From a virus (Duplodnaviria > Heunggongvirae > Uroviricota > Caudoviricetes), in IMG/VR virus record IMGVR_UViG_2690316296_000007, positions 1 through 41,346 of that record: DNA of 41,346 bases; one strand, given 5' to 3'. Position 1 is the first letter of the stretch; the number at the start of each line of letters is the position of its first letter. A model generated the notes under the pieces. The model did no database searches and had not been told where the DNA came from. It worked only from the letters and a program-made list of their open reading frames with translations. Below are positions 22,850 to 32,826 of this stretch, piece after piece. Both the position numbers and the translations under genes were made by a program.

Positions 22850-24583
22850 TTAAAGCGAGCGGATCCCATAGGACTCAATGTGGTCAGACAGCGTGTCTTC
22901 TTTCTCGTACAGCATGGCTCTGCCAACCGCCATAATCAGCGCAACTGCACCGTCAATTTTGTTTTCCGCCTGCTCTTTGACGGGCTTCACCACATCATCG
23001 TTACCCGGAATGGTTTTGCCGACCACGTTGCCGATACACCAGGTCATGATGGGATTGCCATCATGATGAAAGCGCCCCGATTCAATTGCCGCTTCCAGCT
23101 CTTTCATCGGGTCGGACATGTTGGTGTAGTTCTGAATGATAGTGATGGGGTTCAGGTCTTCATCAGCAAGGTCATGTGACAACCCGGTCGCCCCGAAGGG
23201 GTCGATGGGTGACTCACTGACCGGGCTGATTTTGTTCGCTGCTTTGGCCTCTTCGAGGATGTAGCGATAATCCACCTCTGCACCATCGGTAACGGTCAGG
23301 ACGCCCATTTCCACCCATTTCTGAAAGCGTTCGGCTGTCCGGCGATCTTCATTTTTCTCGACGCTGTACACCGTGTCATACGGTACCCAGAAACGCGGGG
23401 CTACACTGTAGTAATGCGTTTTACCGTCAATCTCGCGGGTATAAAGTCGCGCCATGCTGTTCATATCCAGCTTACGCGCCAGGTCAAAGGCCAGAATGCA
23501 CGGCTGCCCCTCGAACTGCTCAAGGGTAAGTGATTTATCCTCGCAGCTCTGCCAGCTCACCAGGTTGAAATACGCCGAACGCGCCGACACCCAGATATTG
23601 AGGTGTTTTGTTTTAAAGACGTTTGCCAGACGGGCGTTATTTTTCGCACGCTGTTGCTGACTTAACAAAAACTCACGGTAAACCGACACCCCGATATTCG
23701 GGTTAGCTTTTTCCAGCACCTGTGGGTCGGTCCAGTCGTCACCTTCGTCAACGGTATAGATGATCCCGAACAGTTCATCGTTGGGTACCGACCCGTTGAG
23801 CATCTCGATAACTTCCCGCCGCTTGTCGTAGCACGGCCCCTCAATGTTGTACCCGGCAGTAGTAATGGCCCACATCAGTGGCTGACGTCGCGCCCCCATC
23901 CCGGTAAGCATCGTGGTGTAAAGCGCATCGGTGGCGTGCTCGTGATATTCATCCACCACCGCACAGTGGGGTGATGATCCATCACCGGGGTTACCGATCA
24001 GCGGTTCAAACCGCGCGCCATCCTCCGGACGGTTCATGTTTGAGGCGTTAACCTCAATCCCGAACGCTTCCGTCAGCATGGGTGTGCGTTTACACATCAG
24101 TCGCGCCGGGCGAAAGACTTCCCACGCCTGTTTCTCTGTCGTGGCACCGGAATACACTTCCGCGCCAAACTCGTTATCACAGGCAAAACAATACAGGGCG
24201 ACACCGGCAGAGATTGCCGATTTGCCGTTCTTACGGGGAATTTCGGTATACACCTCCCGGAAGCGGCGCAGCCGGGTACCTTTATTGACCCAGCCAAACG
24301 CACAGCAGATCACAAAGAGCTGCCACGGCTCCAGCGTGATGGGCATCCTCTTGAATGCCCACTCCCCCTTGGTGTGCGGCAACAGTTGAATAAATTTGGC
24401 GGCCCGTTCAGCCAGGTCCTTGTCGAAGCGGTAACGAAACGACTTACTTTTTTCCGCCATCAGGTCATCAAGATGGCGCTGGCAGGCCTGAATCACAAAC
24501 TGGCAGGCCACAATCTTTCCGCGCACGACATCACGGGCATACTGATTGGCAGCATTTACGTTGGGGTAAGATTTCCGGCTCAT
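22850..24583 (-). CDS. Terminase large subunit
   Basis: 577-aa ORF with ATPase and nuclease character, overlapping the TerS stop. Confidence 0.9.
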
Positions 24584-25074
24584 GACTCGATGATTTTCAG
24601 AAACGGGTTAGTGGCTTTCTTCTGCCCCGCCAGGCCAATCAGACGCTGGCGGCTGCTGGGGTCGAGTCCGAGCATTGCCCCCGTGCTGCTCATCTCGGAC
24701 TCCTGTTCTTTTTTGGCGGTCAGCTCCGGATTTTTGACCCTGCCGCCCATTGCACCGGTGATGGTGTTGCCCTGTATGGCAATATTTTTCACGGCACGTC
24801 GCCAGAACTCATAGGCCACGCACCACCGCTCAAGCACCGCGAGGTCAGTCACGCACAGCAGGCCCTGACCGCAGAGTTCTTTGGTTGTCAGTTGCCACAT
24901 GATCGTGGCGAGAGGGAGATCTTCTTCAGCGAACCACTCCGGTGGCTCAACACCTTTGATGGGCGTAAAAACAGGTTCATCTTTGTTCAGGGCTCGCTTG
25001 CCAGGGTTTCCGGCCAGCGCCTTGCGCGCCGTTGGCTTGGGGCGACGCCCGGAACGCCCCGCCGTTCCAGCCAT
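24580..25074 (-). CDS. Terminase small subunit (P27 family)
   Basis: N-terminus [30 protein letters not shown]; the ATG at 25074 is preferred over the track's GTG at 25083. Confidence 0.8.
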
Positions 25075-25083
25075 ATGCGGCAC

Positions 25084-25199: not shown

Positions 25200-25550
25200 T
25201 CACTTTAACCGTTCACGGGCCGTCTTCGCCTTATGACACGGCCAGCACAGACTCTGCAGATTACTGTCAGCATCAGTGCCGCCATGCGCTTTAGGGATGA
25301 TGTGGTCAACAGTTTTCGCCTCACGCACCACACCAGCACGCAGACATAACTGACACAGACCTTTGTCACGCTTCAGAACACGCGCGCGGATACTGTCCCA
25401 CTTCGAACCGTAGCCGCGCTGATGACGGGATTGTCCAGGTTTGTATTGCTTCCAGCCTTCGCTTTTGTGGCTTTCGCAGTAGCCTGACGGGTCAGTAGTG
25501 GTATGGCGGCAGCCGCGAACACGGCAGGCTTTTGGGGTTCGTAGGGGCAT
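25200..25550 (-). CDS. HNH endonuclease (terminase-associated)
   Basis: Cys-rich zinc-finger motifs plus DHIIPKAHGGTDADSNLQSLCWPCH; start at the ATG at 25550, preceded by AAGAGGA. Confidence 0.85.
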   Translation of the reverse strand: MPLRTPKACRVRGCRHTTTDPSGYCESHKSEGWKQYKPGQSRHQRGYGSKWDSIRARVLKRDKGLCQLCLRAGVVREAKTVDHIIPKAHGGTDADSNLQSLCWPCHKAKTARERLK

Positions 25551-25700
25551 TGCATAATCCTCTTGGATGGTTCGCGTACGATACGTGGCATCCTTCTCAG
25601 AATCGAATCGCACTCCATTCCGGTTTTGCCATAAACGATCTTTTATGCTTCGCTGGATGTAGTTGATAGTTGTTGAAACTCAATGAACAGGAGTTCACAA

Positions 25701-26036
25701 ATGAATAGTTATGAATGGGAATGGCTTTTGAACAAAGATGACACCCTATACTTTTTCCCCGTAGGCCATTCTGTAGAAGGTAATTACAAAATTCACTTTG
25801 AGTTGAGCGGTAGTTGTAACCTTAGAGTCTCTGATGCTGAATGGCATGGTAAACCTGTACTGCTGTTCGAATACTTCGATGAAGATGATGACCGCCCTGC
25901 AATAATCGAAATATTAGAAACAACCACTACAACTGTGGAGGCGATGATCGCACATCTGAATAGTATCGATAGTATTTACCATGAACCGATTTACAAAGCT
26001 GTTTACGAGTGGGCTGTAAAGTTTTTCTATCGATGA
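25701..26036 (+). CDS. Hypothetical acidic cargo protein
   Basis: AT-rich plus-strand ORF opposite to the late operon; CAGGAG before the ATG at 25701; acidic stretch FEYFDEDDDRPAIIEILE. Confidence 0.5.
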   Translation: MNSYEWEWLLNKDDTLYFFPVGHSVEGNYKIHFELSGSCNLRVSDAEWHGKPVLLFEYFDEDDDRPAIIEILETTTTTVEAMIAHLNSIDSIYHEPIYKAVYEWAVKFFYR

Positions 26037-26079
26037 TACTTCGTTATCTTTCTGGCATTCACAATACCTTTACATATTA

Positions 26080-26706
26080 ATGACATGCCAGCACAATACT
26101 GTCACTTACAACCGTTCGGATTACCTAGAGAAAAGTATGATTCAGGATTTACTGATCGAAGCAATTAGTCACGATAGGATGCATAAAAAGTTAAATGAAC
26201 TGAATGGCTACTTCTACAATCGCAAACATGAAACACAAATACGTGATGAGTTAGTTGTTATACTCAATCAAATCAGCACACTAACTGCTTTAAGTGAGCA
26301 TCCAAAACTCGGTATCGGCGCTGTTGACATATCACTTTATAACCAGTCGATATTAACGTCTGAACATAATGGCAATGTTGCAACCATCGAGATAAAACAC
26401 CATTACCCAAAGGATTTACTTTATCGGCAAGTTCAAGAAGACATCATTTCCGATATTTCAAGAGTAATAGTTTCACCAACTACACATTTTATCCATATAA
26501 TCCAGCAAAGAACCAGGATTAATACTCCTTCTTTTGGCCAAGTGAAATTCCTTGAACGTGATGCAAGTGATATCAGCACTTATGTGCAATACCTTGAAGA
26601 GCTAAGTTCATTTCCCAGTAATTTTCATAAAAAAAGTATATGTATTGAGGTACTTGGTGAAATTATGTCGACATATACCTTTAACGTATATTCATTTGAC
26701 AACTGA
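26080..26706 (+). CDS. Hypothetical cargo protein with possible PD-(D/E)xK nuclease signature
   Basis: AT-rich ORF (alternative start 26137); GAVDISLY ... TIEIKHH fits the D ... ExK spacing. Confidence 0.45.
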   Translation: MTCQHNTVTYNRSDYLEKSMIQDLLIEAISHDRMHKKLNELNGYFYNRKHETQIRDELVVILNQISTLTALSEHPKLGIGAVDISLYNQSILTSEHNGNVATIEIKHHYPKDLLYRQVQEDIISDISRVIVSPTTHFIHIIQQRTRINTPSFGQVKFLERDASDISTYVQYLEELSSFPSNFHKKSICIEVLGEIMSTYTFNVYSFDN

Positions 26707-26727: not shown

Positions 26728-26985
26728 TTAATGGTTAGTTCTCTCTGCATCTATTTTACGAATATCAGCTTTATCCCGATTGCAGTTAGCCAGTGCAGAC
26801 AACAGGCTCACATTCAGCTCCAGGCTGGCACCATACGTCAGCGGATTGGGTATAAACGGTACAGGAGTATCAGAAGTCAGGCTGGCTGGCAGTGGTGCCA
26901 CCGGAGCGCTCACGTAAACCGTTCGCGAATTTCCGCAACCGGTCAGCAGCGGCAGCAGGCACAGGACGTGAAGCACAATCATCAT
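26728..26985 (-). CDS. Rz1-like outer-membrane lipoprotein (o-spanin)
   Basis: ORF in another frame overlapping the 3' end of Rz; lipobox LLTGC; Pro-rich. Confidence 0.6.
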   Translation of the reverse strand: MMIVLHVLCLLPLLTGCGNSRTVYVSAPVAPLPASLTSDTPVPFIPNPLTYGASLELNVSLLSALANCNRDKADIRKIDAERTNH

Positions 26986-27262
26986 CCGCAACAGCCACTT
27001 TGATATCTTCCTGGGTTCTCTGTGACTCCAGTGCGATCTGCTGTTTTGCATGCTGGTTAACCTCTATAACTGTATTGACGATTTGCAGTGATTGCAGGAC
27101 GTTACGGGTAATGGCTGTTGCAGATTCAACATTTTGTACAGCCTCATCAGCACGTTTCTTTTCGTGCTGATATTTGCTGTAGTAGTGGTTGGCAGACCAG
27201 ATGAAAGAACCGATGACAGTAAAGAAGAATGCAGCGATAACCAGCTTATAGCTCAACTTCAT
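26870..27262 (-). CDS. Rz-like i-spanin
   Basis: 130-aa ORF after the endolysin; N-terminal TM helix then a charged helical region. Confidence 0.7.
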   Translation of the reverse strand: MKLSYKLVIAAFFFTVIGSFIWSANHYYSKYQHEKKRADEAVQNVESATAITRNVLQSLQIVNTVIEVNQHAKQQIALESQRTQEDIKVAVADDDCASRPVPAAAADRLRKFANGLRERSGGTTASQPDF

Positions 27263-27722
27263 TTACCCCCCCACCAGCCTCTTTAAACCGGGAAATCAGG
27301 TCACCGATTTTATGTTCATACTGACCGTAACCTGCACCAGGTAACGACGCCCAGATATTGCTGCAACGATCGATAGCCTGACGGATATCACCGCGATCAA
27401 TCATCGGTAAAGCGCCACGCTCTTTAATCTGCTGCAATGCCACTGCGTCCTGGCTTTTGGGGGAGAAGTCTTTCAAACCAAGCTGTTTACGGTAAGCATC
27501 CCACCAGCGTGAAAGAAGCTGATAACGTCCGGCGGCTGTTGATTTGAGTTTGGGGTTTAACGTGACAAGTTTGCGAGGGTGATCAGAGTAATCAGTAAAC
27601 AGTTCGCCGCCAACAATAACATCATAACCGTGATTACGTGTCGGTTGTCGCCCGTTATCCGTTCCTTCTGACCAAGCCACCATATCAAGGAAAGCTTTAC
27701 GCTGGGGATTTAGCACCTGCAT
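27246..27722 (-). CDS. R: Endolysin (lambda R-like lytic transglycosylase)
   Basis: NPQRKAFLDMVAWSEGTDNGRQPTRNHGYDVIVGGELFTDYSDHPRKLVTLNPKLKSTAAGRYQLLSRWWDAYRKQLGL closely matches lambda R as recalled. Confidence 0.9.
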   Translation of the reverse strand: MQVLNPQRKAFLDMVAWSEGTDNGRQPTRNHGYDVIVGGELFTDYSDHPRKLVTLNPKLKSTAAGRYQLLSRWWDAYRKQLGLKDFSPKSQDAVALQQIKERGALPMIDRGDIRQAIDRCSNIWASLPGAGYGQYEHKIGDLISRFKEAGGGVNEVEL

Positions 27723-27725
27723 AAA

Positions 27726-28052
27726 TTACTCCTTAGAACCACCAAACTTATTACCGATTACTCTCATTGCAGCCCCACGAATAGCATCGACACCGATCAA
27801 CCCAACGCCACCACCAATGGCAACAGAAAGAGATTTAGGCCATCCGACATACTCAAGAGCGGATGCAAAAGTCAGCGTCAGAGCACCACAGAGCAAAATC
27901 TCGAGCGTTTTTCGTTTCCAGCCCCCACCACCGCCAAAATATGCAATGCGCAAGCCAGCCATAACAATCGACATAATCACTGCGCCCAGCGGTGTGTCTC
28001 CACGCCACCAGCTCTGGACCAACTCCAACCAAGTATTTGGGTTATGAGGCAT
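27726..28052 (-). CDS. Holin (three predicted TM segments)
   Basis: 108-aa ORF immediately upstream of the endolysin; hydrophobic segments with a charged C-terminus. Confidence 0.65.
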   Translation of the reverse strand: MPHNPNTWLELVQSWWRGDTPLGAVIMSIVMAGLRIAYFGGGGGWKRKTLEILLCGALTLTFASALEYVGWPKSLSVAIGGGVGLIGVDAIRGAAMRVIGNKFGGSKE

Positions 28053-28204
28053 TTGTAGTTATCTCTCACCTCGCTGATACAGCAGGTGCAAATTGAGGGA
28101 ACATCATGTACCGCAAATCAGAAGCGGAAACGTCAAAGAAGCCGAACCAATGGATAACTGCGGAATAGGCCAGAACCAACGAATCCCCAGCCCCAGAAAC
28201 GACA

Positions 28205-28225
28205 AAACCCGCTCGACGCGGGTTT
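28205..28225 (-). terminator. Terminator-like hairpin upstream of the holin (possible tR')
   Basis: AAACCCGC-TCGAC-GCGGGTTT, followed on the minus strand by a U-rich stretch. Confidence 0.3.
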
Positions 28226-28270
28226 AAGCTGTGTGGCGAAGTAACCACTCTTAACACGATACAATACTTT

Positions 28271-28299
28271 TTGCGTACGCGTTAGCATTTGATTAGAAT
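28271..28299 (+). promoter_or_regulatory. Sigma70-type promoter for the Q-S cargo cassette
   Basis: TTGCGT - 17 bp - TAGAAT, then AGGTGA Shine-Dalgarno before the ATG at 28332. Confidence 0.45.
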
Positions 28300-28331
28300 C
28301 CAATCATCAGAAAGCTAGGTGAAGGTTCAAA

Positions 28332-29153
28332 ATGAATTTTTCTTACACAAAACAGGATGGTCATACCAAACGCTGCCTTGTCAGAGCATTCAATGTTAAT
28401 ACAGCAACAACAGATATACTCTTCGACCAAATTTCAAATTCTGGTAAATTTATTGTTGACACTGTTTTTAAAATAAACAATGAACAACATTTAATACTGA
28501 AAGAGTTTTCTACAAATAATAAAAGTCATTACTTACACTTTGCATTATATAATCCAAAAGAACAAGTATCGATCACACCAAAAATAAAAACCGCAAGCGA
28601 TCTTCTTGATGTTGAAAACCTTGACAATTTGCACGCTTTTTTATATGTAAAAGAAAATAAAATTGCATCTCTAATGCAAATATCAACAAATTGGTGTGAA
28701 ATTAAAATCGCTAAAATATTCGAGCAATTTGGTATAAAAATAACACCATCAGCAATTTTGCAAAAAAATGTCATTCAACGAATTAAAGATGATAAACTTA
28801 GGGCTTTGCATCTTAATATTAGCGTTGATGCTTCTAATTTTGTGAAAACGCCCAGCTTTATAGACTCTATTTTTCAGAAAGAACCCAAACTTAAAGCTAG
28901 AGGTATTTCAGGACATTTAACTCTTGATGCAAAAGGAAATGCTGAACTAGCACAATCTATTGAAACCAACCCTAGTGGTTGGATAAATGATTTGGATTCT
29001 GATTTTTATATAGAAACAAAAAAAGGAGAGAAAATAACTAGTGACGACATTAAGTTAACAAAAGTTTATTATACAGTCCCTTATGGTTCAAAATCTATTA
29101 ATTCAAAATATGCGAAAGAAATTCTAGAGGACTTTGCTCAAAAAGAGCTATAA
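28332..29153 (+). CDS. Cargo protein A, 273 aa, soluble, unknown function
   Basis: AT-rich ORF with strong Shine-Dalgarno, antisense to the late operon; no recognisable motif. Confidence 0.55.
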   Translation: MNFSYTKQDGHTKRCLVRAFNVNTATTDILFDQISNSGKFIVDTVFKINNEQHLILKEFSTNNKSHYLHFALYNPKEQVSITPKIKTASDLLDVENLDNLHAFLYVKENKIASLMQISTNWCEIKIAKIFEQFGIKITPSAILQKNVIQRIKDDKLRALHLNISVDASNFVKTPSFIDSIFQKEPKLKARGISGHLTLDAKGNAELAQSIETNPSGWINDLDSDFYIETKKGEKITSDDIKLTKVYYTVPYGSKSINSKYAKEILEDFAQKEL

Positions 29154-29176
29154 TATACTAAAAAAAGGAGGCTAAC

Positions 29177-29662
29177 ATGTTAAAATCACTCAATTACTCA
29201 GGTATATCATTAACTTTGTTAAACATTTTAGCCTCAGTATTATTTTCAATTTTCCTCACACATACTTTAACGAACAATACTGACGCATTAAATTTGGTCG
29301 CCAATGTATTTTCTATCCTATCTGGTTTTCTTTTGTTGGTTATCACAATGTCTGGTGAAAACTCTACTCTGATGAACAACTTAAGCAAATTAGACGCTGC
29401 AAATCAAGAAATACGTTTCCTCATGCGTTTTAACAAATATTATGCTTTATTCTTGTTATATATTTTAACATTAGCTTTAATTTTTGTTTTTTATTTAATA
29501 TCCAAGGATAAAGAAAACACATCTCAATACTTCATTCTGTTTAAGAAGTCAATTGGTTACATTATCTCTTTTTTAACTTGTTTTTCTTTTATACAATCAA
29601 CATTCATCCCACTAAAAATAAAAGAATTATTTAAAGAGAAAAGACAACTTAATAAAAAATAG
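29177..29662 (+). CDS. Cargo protein B, 161 aa, four predicted TM helices
   Basis: AAGGAGG Shine-Dalgarno; four hydrophobic segments; ends at the terminator. Confidence 0.55.
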   Translation: MLKSLNYSGISLTLLNILASVLFSIFLTHTLTNNTDALNLVANVFSILSGFLLLVITMSGENSTLMNNLSKLDAANQEIRFLMRFNKYYALFLLYILTLALIFVFYLISKDKENTSQYFILFKKSIGYIISFLTCFSFIQSTFIPLKIKELFKEKRQLNKK

Positions 29663-29684
29663 GCCGCATAGCGGCCATTTTTTT
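29662..29684. terminator. Bidirectional rho-independent terminator
   Basis: GGCCGC-ATA-GCGGCC hairpin with T7 run on the plus strand and T6 run on the minus strand; overlaps the stops of cargo protein B and Q. Confidence 0.6.
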
Positions 29685-30046
29685 CATGTTAACAAAATAC
29701 TTAAACAGCCATCGATGAATCCCATTGCAGTCTGTAATTCTTTTCGGATGGTACCATCAGAACACTTCTGCTTCTTTGCGATAGTTCTTAATGAGATGCC
29801 GATAATAAAATGAGCAATAACCAACTCATACTCTTCGGGCTTATATTTACGCAATCGCGCAACACAGCTGTCAATCATGATTCCTTCATCATCATCGCAT
29901 TGTTGGCGTGTTTTCTTTCCATGAGGTAGTAAACCTTTAAACCCTGCAGCAACAGGCTGCCAGTCCACACCACTGTTATCTGCTGCAGCCCATGCTCCCC
30001 AGCGGTCCAAAACTTCATACATATCACGCATCAACTTTCTCCACAA
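29684..30046 (-). CDS. Late-gene antiterminator Q (QuuD/QuuQ-like)
   Basis: VLDRWGAWAA ... DWQPVAAGFKGLL ... CDDDEGIMIDSCVARL ... CSDGTIRKELQTAMGFIDG resembles E. coli prophage Q proteins as recalled. Confidence 0.8.
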   Translation of the reverse strand: MWRKLMRDMYEVLDRWGAWAAADNSGVDWQPVAAGFKGLLPHGKKTRQQCDDDEGIMIDSCVARLRKYKPEEYELVIAHFIIGISLRTIAKKQKCSDGTIRKELQTAMGFIDGCLSILLT

Positions 30047-30048
30047 AA

Positions 30049-31044
30049 TCAGGCCAGCACACCAATTGCCAGTGCACGATCGATAAAACGAAATATCAGC
30101 TCCAGCTGGGAGCCATACTTCTCTTCAAATGCCACGGTATCCGCATGCAGCTCGTCGTGATGCTTTCTGCACAAAGGCAACACAAAGAGGTCATGCGCTT
30201 TTGTACCCATTCCCCCCTGACCGTGGCCTATCAGGTGGTGGGGATCATCAGCAGGCTTTCCACAACATGCACACAGCTGCGTCTTAACCCAGCGCGTGTA
30301 CTTTTCATTAACCCAGCGGCGACGTTTTGGGCGTAACATAAAAGACTCCGGCGACTCCGGATCCACTTCCAGCGCCAGCACTTTTTTCGCTTTATCCTGG
30401 ATGATGCTGGTGGCAGGAACCGAAGGCACAAGGTCACTTTCCCGGGTAACAGACGGCACAACAGGCTTCGGTAATCTAAGTGCCTTACGGGCTGCACTTT
30501 CCGGTAAGGCATCCGCCAGGTCATTACGAATCAGCCACCAGCACAGTTCCGGCATTGTCACAACGTGACTGTCATCAAAACCGAGATCCCGACGCACAAC
30601 AGACAACACCCAGCGGACACAGTTATCCGTTGCCATTGATTCCAGCCGTTCCGTGAACTGATCGCGCAGCTGGTTATCGCAGTGCCAGCACAGACGGATT
30701 GCGCCCGGAGCGTGTCGCATTGTGGTCATGTTCTCGCTGTGCCAGTCGGAATGAGGCCACTGGCAGCCTTTTTCACGAAGTAACCAGCTTTCAAGACATT
30801 CCACGCCACCAGCACGACGGATCACTGCCTCATTGCGGAACACGGCCCGAACGGCAGGATCATCCGCCAGCGGTTGTGATGCCGCCGGAACGGCACCACT
30901 GGCGAAAGATGAATAACATTCCGGCTCAGGCTCCAGCAGGACACGCCCCTGCATAAACAGGGGCATCAGCTCTGAACCTGGCCTGAACAATACGATCCCC
31001 ATACGCGGGGCAATTTCAGGAGTCAGTAGTGCTCTCACGGTCAC
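30049..31044 (-). CDS. DUF968-family protein (YdfU-like)
   Basis: C-terminus CACCGKPADDPHHLIGHGQGGMGTKAHDLFVLPLCRKHHDELH; adjacent to Q as in Qin-type prophages. Confidence 0.65.
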   Translation of the reverse strand: MTVRALLTPEIAPRMGIVLFRPGSELMPLFMQGRVLLEPEPECYSSFASGAVPAASQPLADDPAVRAVFRNEAVIRRAGGVECLESWLLREKGCQWPHSDWHSENMTTMRHAPGAIRLCWHCDNQLRDQFTERLESMATDNCVRWVLSVVRRDLGFDDSHVVTMPELCWWLIRNDLADALPESAARKALRLPKPVVPSVTRESDLVPSVPATSIIQDKAKKVLALEVDPESPESFMLRPKRRRWVNEKYTRWVKTQLCACCGKPADDPHHLIGHGQGGMGTKAHDLFVLPLCRKHHDELHADTVAFEEKYGSQLELIFRFIDRALAIGVLA

Positions 31045-31876: not shown

Positions 31877-32252
31877 CCGCCGTTTTCTCGTACTTACTGA
31901 TAGTGATCTCGACCTTCCCTTCCGGGATAACCGGTCCCCACTCCACCAGCATTCTTTTCACCTGGCTGTCGTCTTCCCACACACCCGCGTGGGTCAGGGC
32001 GTCAAACAGTGCCTTGTTATAGTTGTCCAGATCGCGGATCCGGTTATCCGGAGGAAACAACACGATCTCCACTGAAGCAGGTGCCGACGTTGGTTTTGTC
32101 AGACGACGTAACTGCTCAACTATTGCTGCACACGCCGCGCTCTGAAATTTTCGCCCCGCCGCGCTTATCAGGCTCTTACCAGCAAATGCCCCTTTGTTGG
32201 GGTGTCGCCAGTACGTGTTCACGCTGGGAGGGAAAGGAAGGATCAACTTCAT
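31863..32252 (-). CDS. rusA: Holliday-junction resolvase RusA
   Basis: 129 aa; LPFPPSVNTYWRH ... IRDLDNYNKALFDALTHAGVWEDDSQV. Confidence 0.85.
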   Translation of the reverse strand: MKLILPFPPSVNTYWRHPNKGAFAGKSLISAAGRKFQSAACAAIVEQLRRLTKPTSAPASVEIVLFPPDNRIRDLDNYNKALFDALTHAGVWEDDSQVKRMLVEWGPVIPEGKVEITISKYEKTAGAAA

Positions 32253-32575
32253 ACTTTCAGGCCCCTCTCATGTAACCAGTGGGCTGCACGCAGCCTGGCG
32301 TTTTCCTCACCGGCAAGCAGTGAGCGGATAATCCCGACCGCCTCGCTGTCGTCGTCCTTCACCGCGGTATGAAGCGTTATCCCCCGGGCCACGCCACGCT
32401 TTATCGTGATGACGCCTTTTTTCTCCAGTGCGCGAAGATGCTCCACCGCTGCATTCACCGAACGATATCCCAGCATGGTTGCCACCTCCTGATTGGTTGG
32501 CGGGAAGCCACGTTCTTTCTGGTAAGAAATCAGCATATCCAGCACCTGCTGCTGGCATTGAGTTAACGTCGTCAT
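32249..32575 (-). CDS. LexA N-terminal DNA-binding-domain homologue without the S24 protease domain
   Basis: LTQCQQQVLDMLISYQKERGFPPTNQEVATMLGYRSVNAAVEHLRALEKKGVITIKRGVARGITL aligns with the LexA winged-helix domain as recalled; only about 108 aa. Confidence 0.7.
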   Translation of the reverse strand: MTTLTQCQQQVLDMLISYQKERGFPPTNQEVATMLGYRSVNAAVEHLRALEKKGVITIKRGVARGITLHTAVKDDDSEAVGIIRSLLAGEENARLRAAHWLHERGLKV

Positions 32576-32826
32576 TACGCCCCCACGTAATTCCCTGACA
32601 GATACCACTCATCACTCGATACAGCGCGCTTGCTGCTTTTCCGTAAACACTGCTCACGACGCGCCAGAAAATTGTTTCGTTCTGGCTGGGAGTGGCTTTC
32701 ACGGAATGCCGCCATCCACACCGTTGCAGCACGACGGTATAAGCCCCTGGACTCCAGTTCTTCAGCCTGGCGGGTCAGGTACAAAATCTCCCGCGGGTCG
32801 TTAGTGCTGACATAGAAATTGCGCAC
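32575..32826 (-). CDS. Hypothetical early protein
   Basis: 83-aa ORF whose stop overlaps the start of the LexA-like gene (ATGA). Confidence 0.45.
   Translation of the reverse strand: MRNFYVSTNDPREILYLTRQAEELESRGLYRRAATVWMAAFRESHSQPERNNFLARREQCLRKSSKRAVSSDEWYLSGNYVGA

What the first reader, a model, noticed from the sequence alone, without database searches (positions are those of the whole stretch)
29662..29720. Late operon layout: Q stop overlaps a bidirectional terminator, and late transcription must cross the cargo cassette in antisense to reach the holin
The hairpin at 29662..29684 can terminate both the plus-strand cargo transcript and minus-strand transcripts leaving Q. Either pR' lies right at the Q 3' end and Q-modified polymerase reads ~1.4 kb antisense through the cargo genes, or pR'/tR' were displaced to 28200..28330 and the cargo promoter is divergent from pR'. 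Both predict transcriptional interference between cargo expression and lytic development.
Basis: inference. Interest (0 to 1): 0.4.

Follow-up and report, generated by a model that had tools for sequence, protein, structure and literature searches.

The report
Defence cassette between Q and pR'
In this E. coli prophage a two-gene, RexAB-like accessory cassette sits, in reverse orientation, between the late-gene activator Q and the late promoter Q acts on, so late transcription starts beyond the cassette and need not cross it; this layout is common (E. coli K-12's DLP12 has it), not an oddity.

Summary
The hairpin is real. GGCCGC-ATA-GCGGCC (29662-29676) has T tracts on both strands and fills the 21-nt gap between the cargo stop (TAG 29660-29662) and the Q stop (TGA 29686-29684).

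The headline claim, that late transcription must cross the cassette antisense, is not supported.

A conserved ~90-bp module on the minus strand (28284-28195) is homologous to the late promoter region of Stx phage Sp5/VT2-Sakai, whose PR' start was mapped by dRNA-seq. It lies 5-40 nt after the Q stop in cassette-free relatives.

Predicted elements (minus strand):
- -10 TATCGT at 28261-28256
- start at about 28250
- terminator hairpin at 28225-28205
- holin ATG at 28052

In an IMG/VR sample, 74 of 104 loci have a 0.5-3 kb insert at this junction, in 30 sequence clusters. The inserts are mostly antisense and low-GC, and include Kiwa.

Cassettes appear to use a conserved -35 (TTGCGT, 28271-28276, + strand) with their own -10, back to back with pR'.

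The window's cargo is a RexA-fold protein plus a 4-TM partner.

A second antisense cassette (25683-26706) does lie inside the late operon. The layout matches DLP12 quuD-nmpC-essD.

The parts
29684..30046 (-). Antiterminator Q. The longest ORF is 120 aa from a TTG start. RefSeq relatives start at the ATG at 30031 (115 aa). Stop TGA is at 29686-29684.
   Evidence: Pfam PF06530 Phage_antitermQ, E 1.9e-46, covering residues 6-118. It is 44% identical to VT2-Sakai/933W Q. It is only weakly similar to Q21 in PDB 6p18 (E 3.5e-4).
29652..29686 (.). Bidirectional intrinsic-terminator-like element. Stem-loop 29662-29676; T tract 29678-29684 on the + strand; A run 29654-29659 (T tract on the - strand). 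It fills the whole gap between the cargo stop and the Q stop.
   Evidence: GC-rich hairpins within about 20 nt of the Q stop recur in roughly 20 of 30 insert clusters.
29177..29662 (+). Cargo B: 161 aa with four hydrophobic segments, RexB-like in size and topology. GC about 0.27.
   Evidence: No significant family hit. No sequence similarity to lambda RexB. It is always paired with cargo A in Enterobacter and Aeromonas.
28332..29153 (+). Cargo A: 273 aa soluble protein with a RexA-like fold.
28271..28299 (+). Predicted cargo promoter. The -35 TTGCGT (28271-28276) lies in the conserved module; a 17-bp spacer follows; the -10 TAGAAT (28294-28299) lies in cassette-specific DNA. Predicted start is about 28306, and the cargo A ATG is at 28332.
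   Evidence: In 15 different cassettes that share the TTGCGTACGC flank, TAnnnT lies exactly 17 bp after TTGCGT in 12 and at 16-18 bp in 14. Background in the same cassettes is 2.3% per position; binomial P about 1e-17. The match is 8 of 12 to consensus, below the scanner's threshold.
28256..28285 (-). Predicted late promoter pR'. The -35-like CTAACG is at 28285-28280, with an 18-bp spacer that holds the palindrome GCGTACGC. The -10 TATCGT is at 28261-28256.
   Evidence: It aligns with the annotated late promoter TTTACG-16-TATCAT of VT2-Sakai. The hexamer has A at position 2 and T at position 6 in 47 of 47 distinct upstream variants, against 12% background.
28195..28253 (-). Late leader. TAAGAGTGGTTACTTCGCCAC is at 28253-28233, with the predicted start at 28251-28248. 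A small hairpin is at 28248-28233. The tR'-like terminator stem-loop is at 28225-28205, with a U tract to about 28195.
   Evidence: It is 80% identical to the first 48 nt of the Sakai PR' transcript. The PR' start and the 258-nt 3' end were mapped by dRNA-seq and Term-seq (PMC7547250; checked on the sequence). The hairpin plus T tract is kept with different stems in 12 variants. The motif is unique in the window.
27726..28052 (-). Holin S, the first late gene, about 200 nt downstream of the predicted pR' start.
   Evidence: PF05106 Phage_holin_3_1, E 5.7e-25.
26728..27722 (-). Endolysin (27246-27722) and Rz/Rz1-like spanin genes (26870-27262 and 26728-27051).
   Evidence: ORFs. The endolysin is annotated as glycoside hydrolase family 24/104 in identical E. 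coli loci. The spanin candidate has a weak DUF2570 match.
25683..26706 (+). Second antisense low-GC two-gene cassette (117 aa and 208 aa). It lies inside the late operon, between the spanin genes and the HNH/terminase genes.
   Evidence: GC 0.32-0.38. No Pfam or PADLOC hit. No terminator-like site at either end. HNH (25200-25613) and the small terminase (24580-25083) are on the minus strand.

Best explanation
The 1.4-kb low-GC cassette (28285-29683) is an exchangeable accessory module inserted between the stop codon of Q and Q's own target, the late promoter region. It is probably an exclusion or defence module: a RexA-fold protein plus a 4-TM partner.

pR' therefore lies on the holin side of the cassette, on the minus strand:
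- -10 TATCGT at 28261-28256
- start at about 28250
- terminator hairpin at 28225-28205
- holin ATG at 28052

The proposed sequence of events is as follows.
1. Q is made from the early rightward operon.
2. Q acts in trans or at a distance on polymerase that starts at this displaced pR'.
3. The modified polymerase reads through tR' into S-R-Rz and onward.
4. Late transcription never has to cross the Q-proximal cassette.

The cassette is a self-contained divergent unit. Its promoter uses a -35 (TTGCGT, 28271-28276) that belongs to the conserved module and lies back to back with pR'. Its -10 (TAGAAT) is its own.

Its 3' end is the 29662-29676 hairpin. That hairpin stops cargo transcripts from running antisense into Q. 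On the other strand it stops early transcripts that leave Q from running antisense into the cargo.

What is shown: the positions, the homology, the conservation statistics, the predicted folds and the RexA-like structure. What is inferred: promoter activity, termination on either strand, Q-dependent read-through and the defence function.
For: 1. Homology to a mapped promoter.
- Window 28285-28195 aligns with the VT2-Sakai late promoter, initial transcribed region and first hairpin.
- In strain Sakai the PR' start was mapped by dRNA-seq and the 3' end by Term-seq 258 nt downstream (PMC7547250).
- On the sequence this puts the start 5-9 nt after the -10 TATCAT.

2. Position in relatives.
- In PhiR49_2 and Stx phage 1720a-02 the module starts about 12 nt after the Q stop.
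- In the window and seven cassette-bearing relatives, homology begins exactly at cTAACGCGTACGC on the holin side, and everything between that point and Q is cassette-specific.

3. Survey of 120 IMG/VR loci that carry the motif.
- 104 have a PF06530-type Q upstream on the same strand.
- In 30 of these the module is adjacent to Q. In 74 there is a 0.5-3 kb insert.
- With the window included, the inserts fall into 30 sequence clusters: 24 antisense only, 3 mixed and 3 co-oriented. GC is 0.29-0.42.

4. The -10 is kept in 47 of 47 distinct upstream variants.

5. A hairpin plus T tract is kept with different stem sequences.

6. The motif occurs once in the window.

7. The layout works in real phages. 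mEp460_4F5 and vB_EcoS-569R4 are phage genome records with a cassette at this site. DLP12 of K-12 has quuD, antisense nmpC, the module, then essD. Its lysis operon is reported to be under Q-type antiterminator control, with its regulatory region just upstream of essD (PMC7918800).

8. The cargo promoter regularity: 12 of 15 cassettes, P about 1e-17.

9. The terminator predictions.

10. The cargo fold, and the fact that the pair also occurs outside prophages.
Against: - No transcript data exist for this prophage, so every promoter and terminator here is a prediction.
- The pR' -35 is poor (CTAACG, 3 of 6, with an 18-bp spacer), and the consensus scanner did not call pR' or the cargo promoter.
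- In Sakai the mapped 3' end is at +258, not at the first hairpin that is homologous to the window's tR'. That hairpin may therefore terminate only partly, or its ~50-nt product may have escaped detection. In the window no second terminator was found before the holin.
- The sigma-dependent pause element was not identified. TACATT in Sakai corresponds to TACTTC here, which lacks the final T.
- The minus-strand T tract of the 29662 hairpin is made of Lys codons of an AT-rich gene. The homologous cassette allele (L009/L056) has a hairpin without good T tracts on either strand. Bidirectional termination may therefore be incidental.
Confidence: 0.8

Rival explanations
1. pR' lies at or inside the 3' end of Q, and Q-modified polymerase reads through the 29662 hairpin and about 1.4 kb antisense across both cargo genes to reach the holin.
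For: In lambda and in cassette-free relatives, pR' directly follows Q (Q cassette description in bioRxiv 10.1101/651190). Q-modified polymerase would ignore the hairpin.
Against: The gap between the Q stop and the cargo stop is 21 nt and is all hairpin. No promoter-like site was called on the minus strand near 29684-29800. The module that accompanies this Q family occurs only at 28233-28253. That module stays on the holin side of the insert in all 74 sampled IMG/VR loci that have one.
Confidence: 0.03
2. The 29662 hairpin is simply the cassette's own terminator. Its apparent activity on the minus strand is a by-product of AT-rich Lys codons and has no role for transcripts that leave Q.
For: The A run 29654-29659 is coding sequence (AAA AAA, Lys-Lys). 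In the homologous allele and in most other cassettes the hairpin lacks a good T tract on the Q-sense strand: 3 or fewer T in 8 in most clusters.
Against: In this window the minus-strand tail has 7 T in 8 and the fold is as stable as on the + strand. In L011/L004 the hairpin has the better T tract on the Q-sense strand. This suggests that stopping transcripts from Q can be selected.
Confidence: 0.3
3. Interference does occur, but from early rather than late transcription. pR-initiated transcripts, antiterminated or leaking through the hairpin, run antisense over the cassette after induction and shut the cargo down.
For: Intrinsic terminators are rarely complete. In lambda, N-modified pR transcripts pass beyond Q (established knowledge). 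In phi80, Q expression lowers the level of the antisense Tai protein (PMC11364771).
Against: No N-like protein was recognised among the early-region ORFs scanned, though the scan was not exhaustive. The hairpin is a strong predicted terminator on the minus strand.
Confidence: 0.2

Closest known systems
DLP12 cryptic prophage of E. coli K-12: quuD, nmpC (antisense porin gene), essD-rrrD-rzpD
   Same: A PF06530-type Q is followed by an antisense accessory gene. Then comes the same module, GGTTTACGTACGTAAAAAATTGGTTATGCTGT-TAAGAGTGGTTACTTCGTCAC...CCCGCCGTCGAGCGGGTTTTT, about 170 nt upstream of the holin. The lysis operon is reported to be under Q-type antiterminator control (PMC7918800).
   Different: The cargo is a porin gene interrupted by IS5, with about 400 bp between its start and the module. 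The DLP12 module has the TTTACG-type upstream half, and the holin belongs to another family.
PR'-tR' late regulatory region of Stx phages Sp5/VT2-Sakai and 933W (source of the StxS small RNA)
   Same: The Q family is the same (44% identity). The -10 position, the initial transcribed sequence TAAGAGTGGTTAC.T.GCCAC and the first GC-rich hairpin with a U tract are homologous. PR' is constitutive and terminated in lysogens (PMC7547250).
   Different: In Sp5 the promoter overlaps the end of Q (17 nt from the Q stop to TAAGAG). Its transcript runs 258 nt to a second terminator and is processed to the 74-nt StxS. The window has homology only to the first 48 nt, lacks the StxS part, and its promoter is 1.4 kb from Q.
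Lambda RexA/RexB exclusion system
   Different: There is no detectable sequence similarity to RexA or RexB and no PADLOC hit. Lambda's rex genes sit in the immunity region and are co-transcribed with cI; this pair sits between Q and pR'. Function was not tested.
Tai/Ati of phage phi80: an antisense defence gene inside the late operon (a 'noncontiguous operon')
   Same: A prophage defence gene lies antisense to late genes. Late transcription driven by Q lowers its expression (PMC11364771).
   Different: Tai lies downstream of pR', upstream of the packaging module, so late transcripts must cross it. The window's Q-proximal cassette lies upstream of pR'. The window's second cassette (25683-26706) occupies the Tai-like position.
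[quoted passage not shown]
   Same: A fixed site between conserved phage genes holds many unrelated, low-GC defence cassettes that are swapped between otherwise similar elements. The site here holds Kiwa, a PDC-S20 KAP NTPase, an ATPase-Toprim (HEC-04-like) protein and NsnA-like proteins.
   Different: The phage family and the site are different. Here one flank of the site is a promoter, and the cassettes appear to share its -35 region.

Membership tests
Q-dependent late regulatory cassette of the Q21/Q933W family (Q, pR' with Q-binding element, sigma-dependent pause, tR', late genes) | Q protein of Pfam PF06530 | tested here: met
   E 1.9e-46, residues 6-118 of 120. PF06530 is named as the Q21/Q933W family in bioRxiv 10.1101/651190.
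Q-dependent late regulatory cassette of the Q21/Q933W family | Late promoter directly follows the Q gene | tested here: not met
   The module is 1.4 kb from the Q stop in the window. It is 5-40 nt away in 30 cassette-free IMG/VR loci. This is a positional variant shared by 74 of 104 sampled loci.
Q-dependent late regulatory cassette of the Q21/Q933W family | Sigma-70 promoter homologous to an experimentally mapped PR' | tested here: met
   Alignment with VT2-Sakai. The mapped start is from PMC7547250. The -10 has A2 and T6 in 47 of 47 variants. Promoter activity itself was not tested.
Q-dependent late regulatory cassette of the Q21/Q933W family | Intrinsic terminator between pR' and the first late gene | tested here: met
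   Hairpin 28225-28205 plus U tract. It is kept with different stems in 12 variants. Efficiency is unknown.
Q-dependent late regulatory cassette of the Q21/Q933W family | Q-binding element between -35 and -10, and a -10-like pause element in the initial transcribed region | tested here: inconclusive
   The spacer holds a palindrome (GCGTACGC here, GCGGTCCGC or TTTACGATCGTAAA in other variants). The Q21 element TGAGCA x2 (PMC6606751) is absent. No clear -10-like hexamer was found in the leader.
Q-dependent late regulatory cassette of the Q21/Q933W family | Q-dependent read-through of tR' | not testable with these tools
   Needs reporter assays or in vitro transcription.
Bidirectional intrinsic terminator | GC-rich stem-loop flanked by an A tract upstream and a T tract downstream, between convergent genes | tested here: met
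Bidirectional intrinsic terminator | RNA 3' ends on both strands at the site | not testable with these tools
   Needs Term-seq or in vitro termination assays.
RexAB-type exclusion system | RexA-like protein | tested here: inconclusive
RexAB-type exclusion system | Adjacent small polytopic membrane partner (RexB-like), in the order A then B | tested here: met
   161 aa with four hydrophobic segments, 24 nt downstream of cargo A. The pairing is kept in Enterobacter and Aeromonas. There is no sequence similarity to RexB.
RexAB-type exclusion system | Excludes superinfecting phage in a lysogen | not testable with these tools
   Needs plaque assays.
Antisense moron inside the late operon (phi80 Tai type) | Cassette lies downstream of pR', so late transcripts must cross it antisense | tested here: not met
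   The 28332-29662 cassette lies upstream of the predicted pR' start at about 28250. By position the criterion is met by the other cassette at 25683-26706.
StxS small RNA | Contains the 74-nt 3' part (StxS-S) with the rpoS-binding seed | tested here: not met
   Only nt 1-48 of the 258-nt Sakai transcript match the window.

The most novel reading that the evidence does not exclude
The junction between Q and pR' of Q933W/QuuD-type lambdoid phages may be a dedicated docking site for antisense defence cassettes.

- Dozens of unrelated cassettes are swapped in by recombination between the Q gene and the promoter module.
- Each cassette completes a hybrid promoter by placing its own -10 exactly 17 bp from a conserved -35. 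That -35 sits back to back with pR', inside the palindrome that may also be the Q-binding site.
- Cassette expression would then be wired to the state of the late switch. It could be driven or insulated by the constitutively firing pR' in lysogens. It could be shut off when Q occupies the shared region during lytic growth.

I found no description of this in the library searched. That library is incomplete.
Probability: 0.4. Interest if true: 0.55.

Novelty: new member of a known kind. Interest (0 to 1): 0.35.

Why it matters
- **Annotation.** In this large family of E. coli, Shigella and Enterobacter prophages, including Stx phages, the late promoter cannot be assumed to abut Q. It should be located by its conserved motif (TAnnnT-N2-TAAGAGTGGTTAC). 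This affects predictions of which accessory genes, toxin genes included, come under Q control.
- **Phage biology.** The site is a rich and easily mined hotspot. An IMG/VR sample gave 30 insert clusters, including Kiwa and several candidate systems, and most are uncharacterised. The RexA-fold/4-TM pair in this window is one of them.
- **Regulation.** If the shared -35 and back-to-back arrangement is functional, it offers a simple testable model. The model would explain how prophages keep defence genes on in lysogens without letting them interfere with, or be disturbed by, late transcription.
- **The finding itself.** The practical message is that the alarming reading, obligatory antisense transcription through the cargo, is wrong.

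Tried and rejected
- **Rfam.** A scan of 27900-30100 at E up to 1 gave only a sub-threshold STnc540 match on the hairpin (17.9 bits against a gathering score of 38). No family covers the late leader.
- **Family searches for the cargo.** Pfam, NCBIfam and PADLOC gave nothing significant for either cargo protein. The only hints were a weak SLATT_4 match (E 0.12) and a 4TM-effector match (E 0.09) for cargo B. PHROGs gave only an unnamed family for cargo A.
- **Comparison with lambda Rex proteins.** hhalign of the cargo A alignment against RexA and BLASTP of cargo B against RexB showed no similarity.
- **Comparison with other cassettes.** phmmer of the window cargo against proteins of 28 other cassettes gave no hits.
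- **Repeats flanking the cassette.** I looked for signs of transposition or site-specific insertion. There were no flanking direct or inverted repeats beyond chance matches. Exchange by homologous recombination in the flanks is therefore the default inference.
- **Phage 21 Q-binding element.** I looked for its TGAGCA direct repeats in the module and did not find them.
- **Pause element.** I tried to place one by eye in the leader and could not do so convincingly.
- **TSS data for the DLP12 copy of the module.** The paper I asked for (PMC4288677) is not held, and a text search found nothing usable.
- **Prior descriptions of a Q-pR' hotspot.** Literature searches found none. The Brenes and Laub prophage-defence paper, which I recall from memory and which may be relevant, is not in the library.
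- **-10 assignment.** I first took TATTGT (28266-28261) as the -10. Alignment with Sakai and the 47-variant comparison moved it to TATCGT (28261-28256).
Full report
**Context**

The window is a lambdoid E. coli prophage whose early-right and late genes run on the minus strand.
- The minus-strand genes near the finding, in order, are RusA, a KilA-N protein, a DUF968 protein (30049-31044), Q (29684-30046, PF06530), holin (27726-28052, PF05106), endolysin, spanins, HNH and the terminase.
- Between Q and the holin lie two plus-strand genes of 273 and 161 aa. Their GC is about 0.23-0.36, against about 0.5 in the flanks.
- The immunity region has an S24 repressor and a CII-like protein. No N-like protein was recognised among the ORFs scanned.

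**The observation**

The hairpin GGCCGC-ATA-GCGGCC (29662-29676) is called as a terminator on both strands.
- The tails are ATTTTTTT on the plus strand and TATTTTTT on the minus strand.
- It folds well below shuffled controls on both strands (-15.2 and -16.7 kcal/mol; 0 of 200 shuffles as good).
- The cargo stop TAG (29660-29662) overlaps the first stem base. The Q stop (complement of 29684-29686) overlaps the last T of the tract.
- The 21-nt convergent gap is therefore entirely terminator.
- One caveat: the minus-strand T tract is encoded by Lys-Lys codons of an AT-rich gene.

**Where the late promoter is**

1. Megablast against phage genomes and E. coli genomes showed conserved flanks around a variable middle.
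2. In two cassette-free phages, PhiR49_2 and Stx phage 1720a-02, the Q stop is followed within about 12 nt by ...GCGGTCCGCAAAAAGTATGTCAGTATGTTAAGAGTGGTTACTTCGCCACACAGCTTAAACCCGCCGCGAGCGGGTTTTTTT.
3. The same sequence lies in the window on the minus strand at 28275-28205, on the holin side of the cassette.
4. An alignment of the window with seven cassette-bearing relatives shows that homology starts exactly at cTAACGCGTACGC (window 28284). Everything from there to Q is cassette-specific.
5. The motif occurs once in the window.

**Homology to a mapped promoter**

- The window's Q is 44% identical to the Q of VT2-Sakai/933W.
- In that phage the annotated late promoter is TTTACG-16-TATCAT. It is followed by GA-TAAGAGTGGTTACATTGCCACGCAGTCGAACCCGCCGATGCGCGGGTTTTTTT.
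- Sy et al. mapped the PR' start in strain Sakai by dRNA-seq, and the 3' end 258 nt downstream by Term-seq (PMC7547250).
- Counting back 258 nt from the second terminator's U tract puts the start in AGAGT, 5-9 nt after TATCAT.
- By alignment, the window's elements on the minus strand are:
  - -35-like CTAACG at 28285-28280
  - an 18-bp spacer
  - -10 TATCGT at 28261-28256
  - start at 28251-28248
  - a small hairpin at 28248-28233
  - the terminator hairpin at 28225-28205, with a U tract to about 28195
  - the holin ATG at 28052
- Only the first 48 nt of the Sakai transcript are homologous. The StxS part is absent.

**How general the layout is**

I scanned IMG/VR for TAAGAGTGGTTACNTNGCCAC.
- In 104 loci a PF06530-type Q lies upstream on the same strand.
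- In 30 of these the Q stop is 5-40 nt from the motif.
- In 74 there is a 0.5-3 kb insert.
- With the window included, the inserts form 30 sequence clusters: 24 with only antisense ORFs, 3 mixed and 3 co-oriented. GC is 0.29-0.42.
- Across 47 distinct upstream variants, the hexamer ending 2 nt before TAAGAG always has A at position 2 and T at position 6. The background rate is 12%. This is the signature of a -10 element.
- The terminator hairpin is kept with different stems: CCCGC/GCGGG, CCCTGCC/GGCGGGG, CCTCGC/GCGGGG and CCCAC/GTGGG.
- E. coli K-12's DLP12 has the same order: quuD, antisense nmpC, the module, then essD. Its lysis operon is reported to be controlled by the Q-type antiterminator through a region just upstream of essD (PMC7918800).
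- mEp460_4F5 and vB_EcoS-569R4 are phage genome records with a cassette at this site.

The layout is therefore ordinary and compatible with lytic growth.

**The cargo side**

- On the plus strand, the conserved module contributes TTGCGT (28271-28276).
- Exactly 17 bp downstream, in cassette-specific DNA, lies TAGAAT (28294-28299). The cargo A ATG is at 28332.
- I took one representative per insert cluster among those sharing the TTGCGTACGC flank, 15 in all.
  - TAnnnT sits at a 17-bp spacing in 12.
  - It sits at 16-18 bp in 14.
  - The per-position background in the same cassettes is 2.3%, giving a binomial P of about 1e-17.
  - The 8 nt between the conserved GTTAG and the -10 differ between cassettes.
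- I infer a hybrid promoter whose -35 is shared and lies 3 bp from the pR' -35-like hexamer. The two predicted starts are about 56 bp apart and divergent.
- The shared region is palindromic in every module type: GCGTACGC, GCGGTCCGC, TTTACGATCGTAAA, TTGTTATAACAA.
- It lies where Q21's binding element lies, between -35 and -10 (PMC6606751). It may therefore be the Q-binding site. This is speculation.

**The Q side**

A GC-rich hairpin lies within about 20 nt of the Q stop in roughly 20 of 30 insert clusters. T tracts vary. The window's hairpin has the best tracts on both strands. In L011/L004 the better tract is on the Q-sense strand. No flanking repeats mark the cassette.

**What the cargo is**

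- Cargo A has no family assignment beyond an unnamed PHROG.
- Its 68 homologue clusters, in Enterobacterales and Aeromonas, are all called hypothetical.
- An AF2 model built on 36 sequences has pLDDT 81 and pTM 0.74.
- Cargo B has four hydrophobic segments, like the 144-aa RexB.
- There is no sequence similarity to RexA or RexB.
- The pair travels together. In Enterobacter prophages it sits antisense between Q and other holin types. In Aeromonas it sits in a non-prophage chromosomal context.
- Other cassettes at the site include Kiwa (KwaA and KwaB, E 2e-83 and 2e-150), a PDC-S20 KAP NTPase, an HEC-04/ATPase-Toprim protein and an NsnA-like protein.
- I therefore read the site as a defence hotspot and the window's cassette as a RexAB-like candidate. 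Function is untested.

**Verdict on the interpretation**

- The title claim is not supported.
- Interference from late transcription does not apply to this cassette.
- It may apply to the second antisense cassette at 25683-26706. That cassette lies between the spanins and HNH/terminase and has no terminators at its ends. This is the position described for Tai in phi80, where Q expression lowered Tai (PMC11364771).

**Remaining uncertainties**

- All promoter and terminator activities are predicted.
- In Sakai the homologous first hairpin is not the mapped 3' end.
- The pause element and the Q-binding site are not identified.
- From memory, lambda Q was reported to act preferentially in cis (Echols and colleagues, 1976; Burt and Brammar, 1982). 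If that applies to this family, moving pR' 1.4 kb away might lower late-gene activation. I did not test this.

Noticed in passing
window 25683-26706 (+ strand): A second low-GC two-gene cassette (117 aa and 208 aa, no Pfam or PADLOC hit) lies antisense inside the late operon, between the spanin genes and HNH/small terminase. It has no terminator-like site at either end. Q-modified late transcription must cross it. This is the position reported for Tai in phi80.
   Followed up: partly
window 28267-28285, and the same place in L001-L009, L010, L131 and the IMG/VR loci: The stretch between the pR' -35 and -10 is palindromic in every module type, but the sequence differs: GCGTACGC, GCGGTCCGC, TTTACGATCGTAAA, TTGTTATAACAA, TTGGAATTCCAA. 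It is always followed by an A run. It could be the Q-binding element, a pair of back-to-back -35 hexamers, or both.
   Followed up: partly
L016/L008 (Kiwa), L021, L090, L096, L120 and other IMG/VR loci: The same Q-pR' junction holds known or candidate defence systems: KwaA/KwaB, a PDC-S20 KAP NTPase, an HEC-04-like ATPase-Toprim protein with a C5 methyltransferase, and an NsnA-like DUF262 protein with a methyltransferase. It also holds many soluble-protein-plus-small-TM-protein pairs with no family assignment.
   Followed up: partly
L133-L136 (Enterobacter prophages), about 60-100 nt upstream of the cargo A homologue: The upstream half of the module (CTAACGCGTACGCAAAA) is kept next to the same cassette. 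The initial transcribed region differs: TATGAGTTGTCACTACGC instead of TAAGAGTGGTTAC. The holins are of other families. The two halves of the module can therefore be recombined.
   Followed up: no
L010 568-590 (VT2-Sakai), equivalent to window 28225-28205: In Sakai a strong-looking hairpin with seven T lies at about +27 to +50 of the PR' transcript, yet the published 3' end is at +258. Either this hairpin terminates poorly or its ~50-nt product was missed. This matters for how tightly the window's holin is kept off in lysogens.
   Followed up: no
window 32249-32608 (- strand): A 119-aa protein with only a LexA DNA-binding domain (PF01726, E 3.7e-19) and no peptidase domain sits in the nin-like region upstream of RusA. 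The same gene order (LexA_DNA_bind, RusA, DUF968, Q) recurs in an Enterobacter prophage (L135).
   Followed up: no
H36/H37 (E. coli Res13 strains), hits: A diverged allele of the same cassette (about 78% identity) carries an IS5 insertion at this locus, as nmpC does in DLP12.
   Followed up: no
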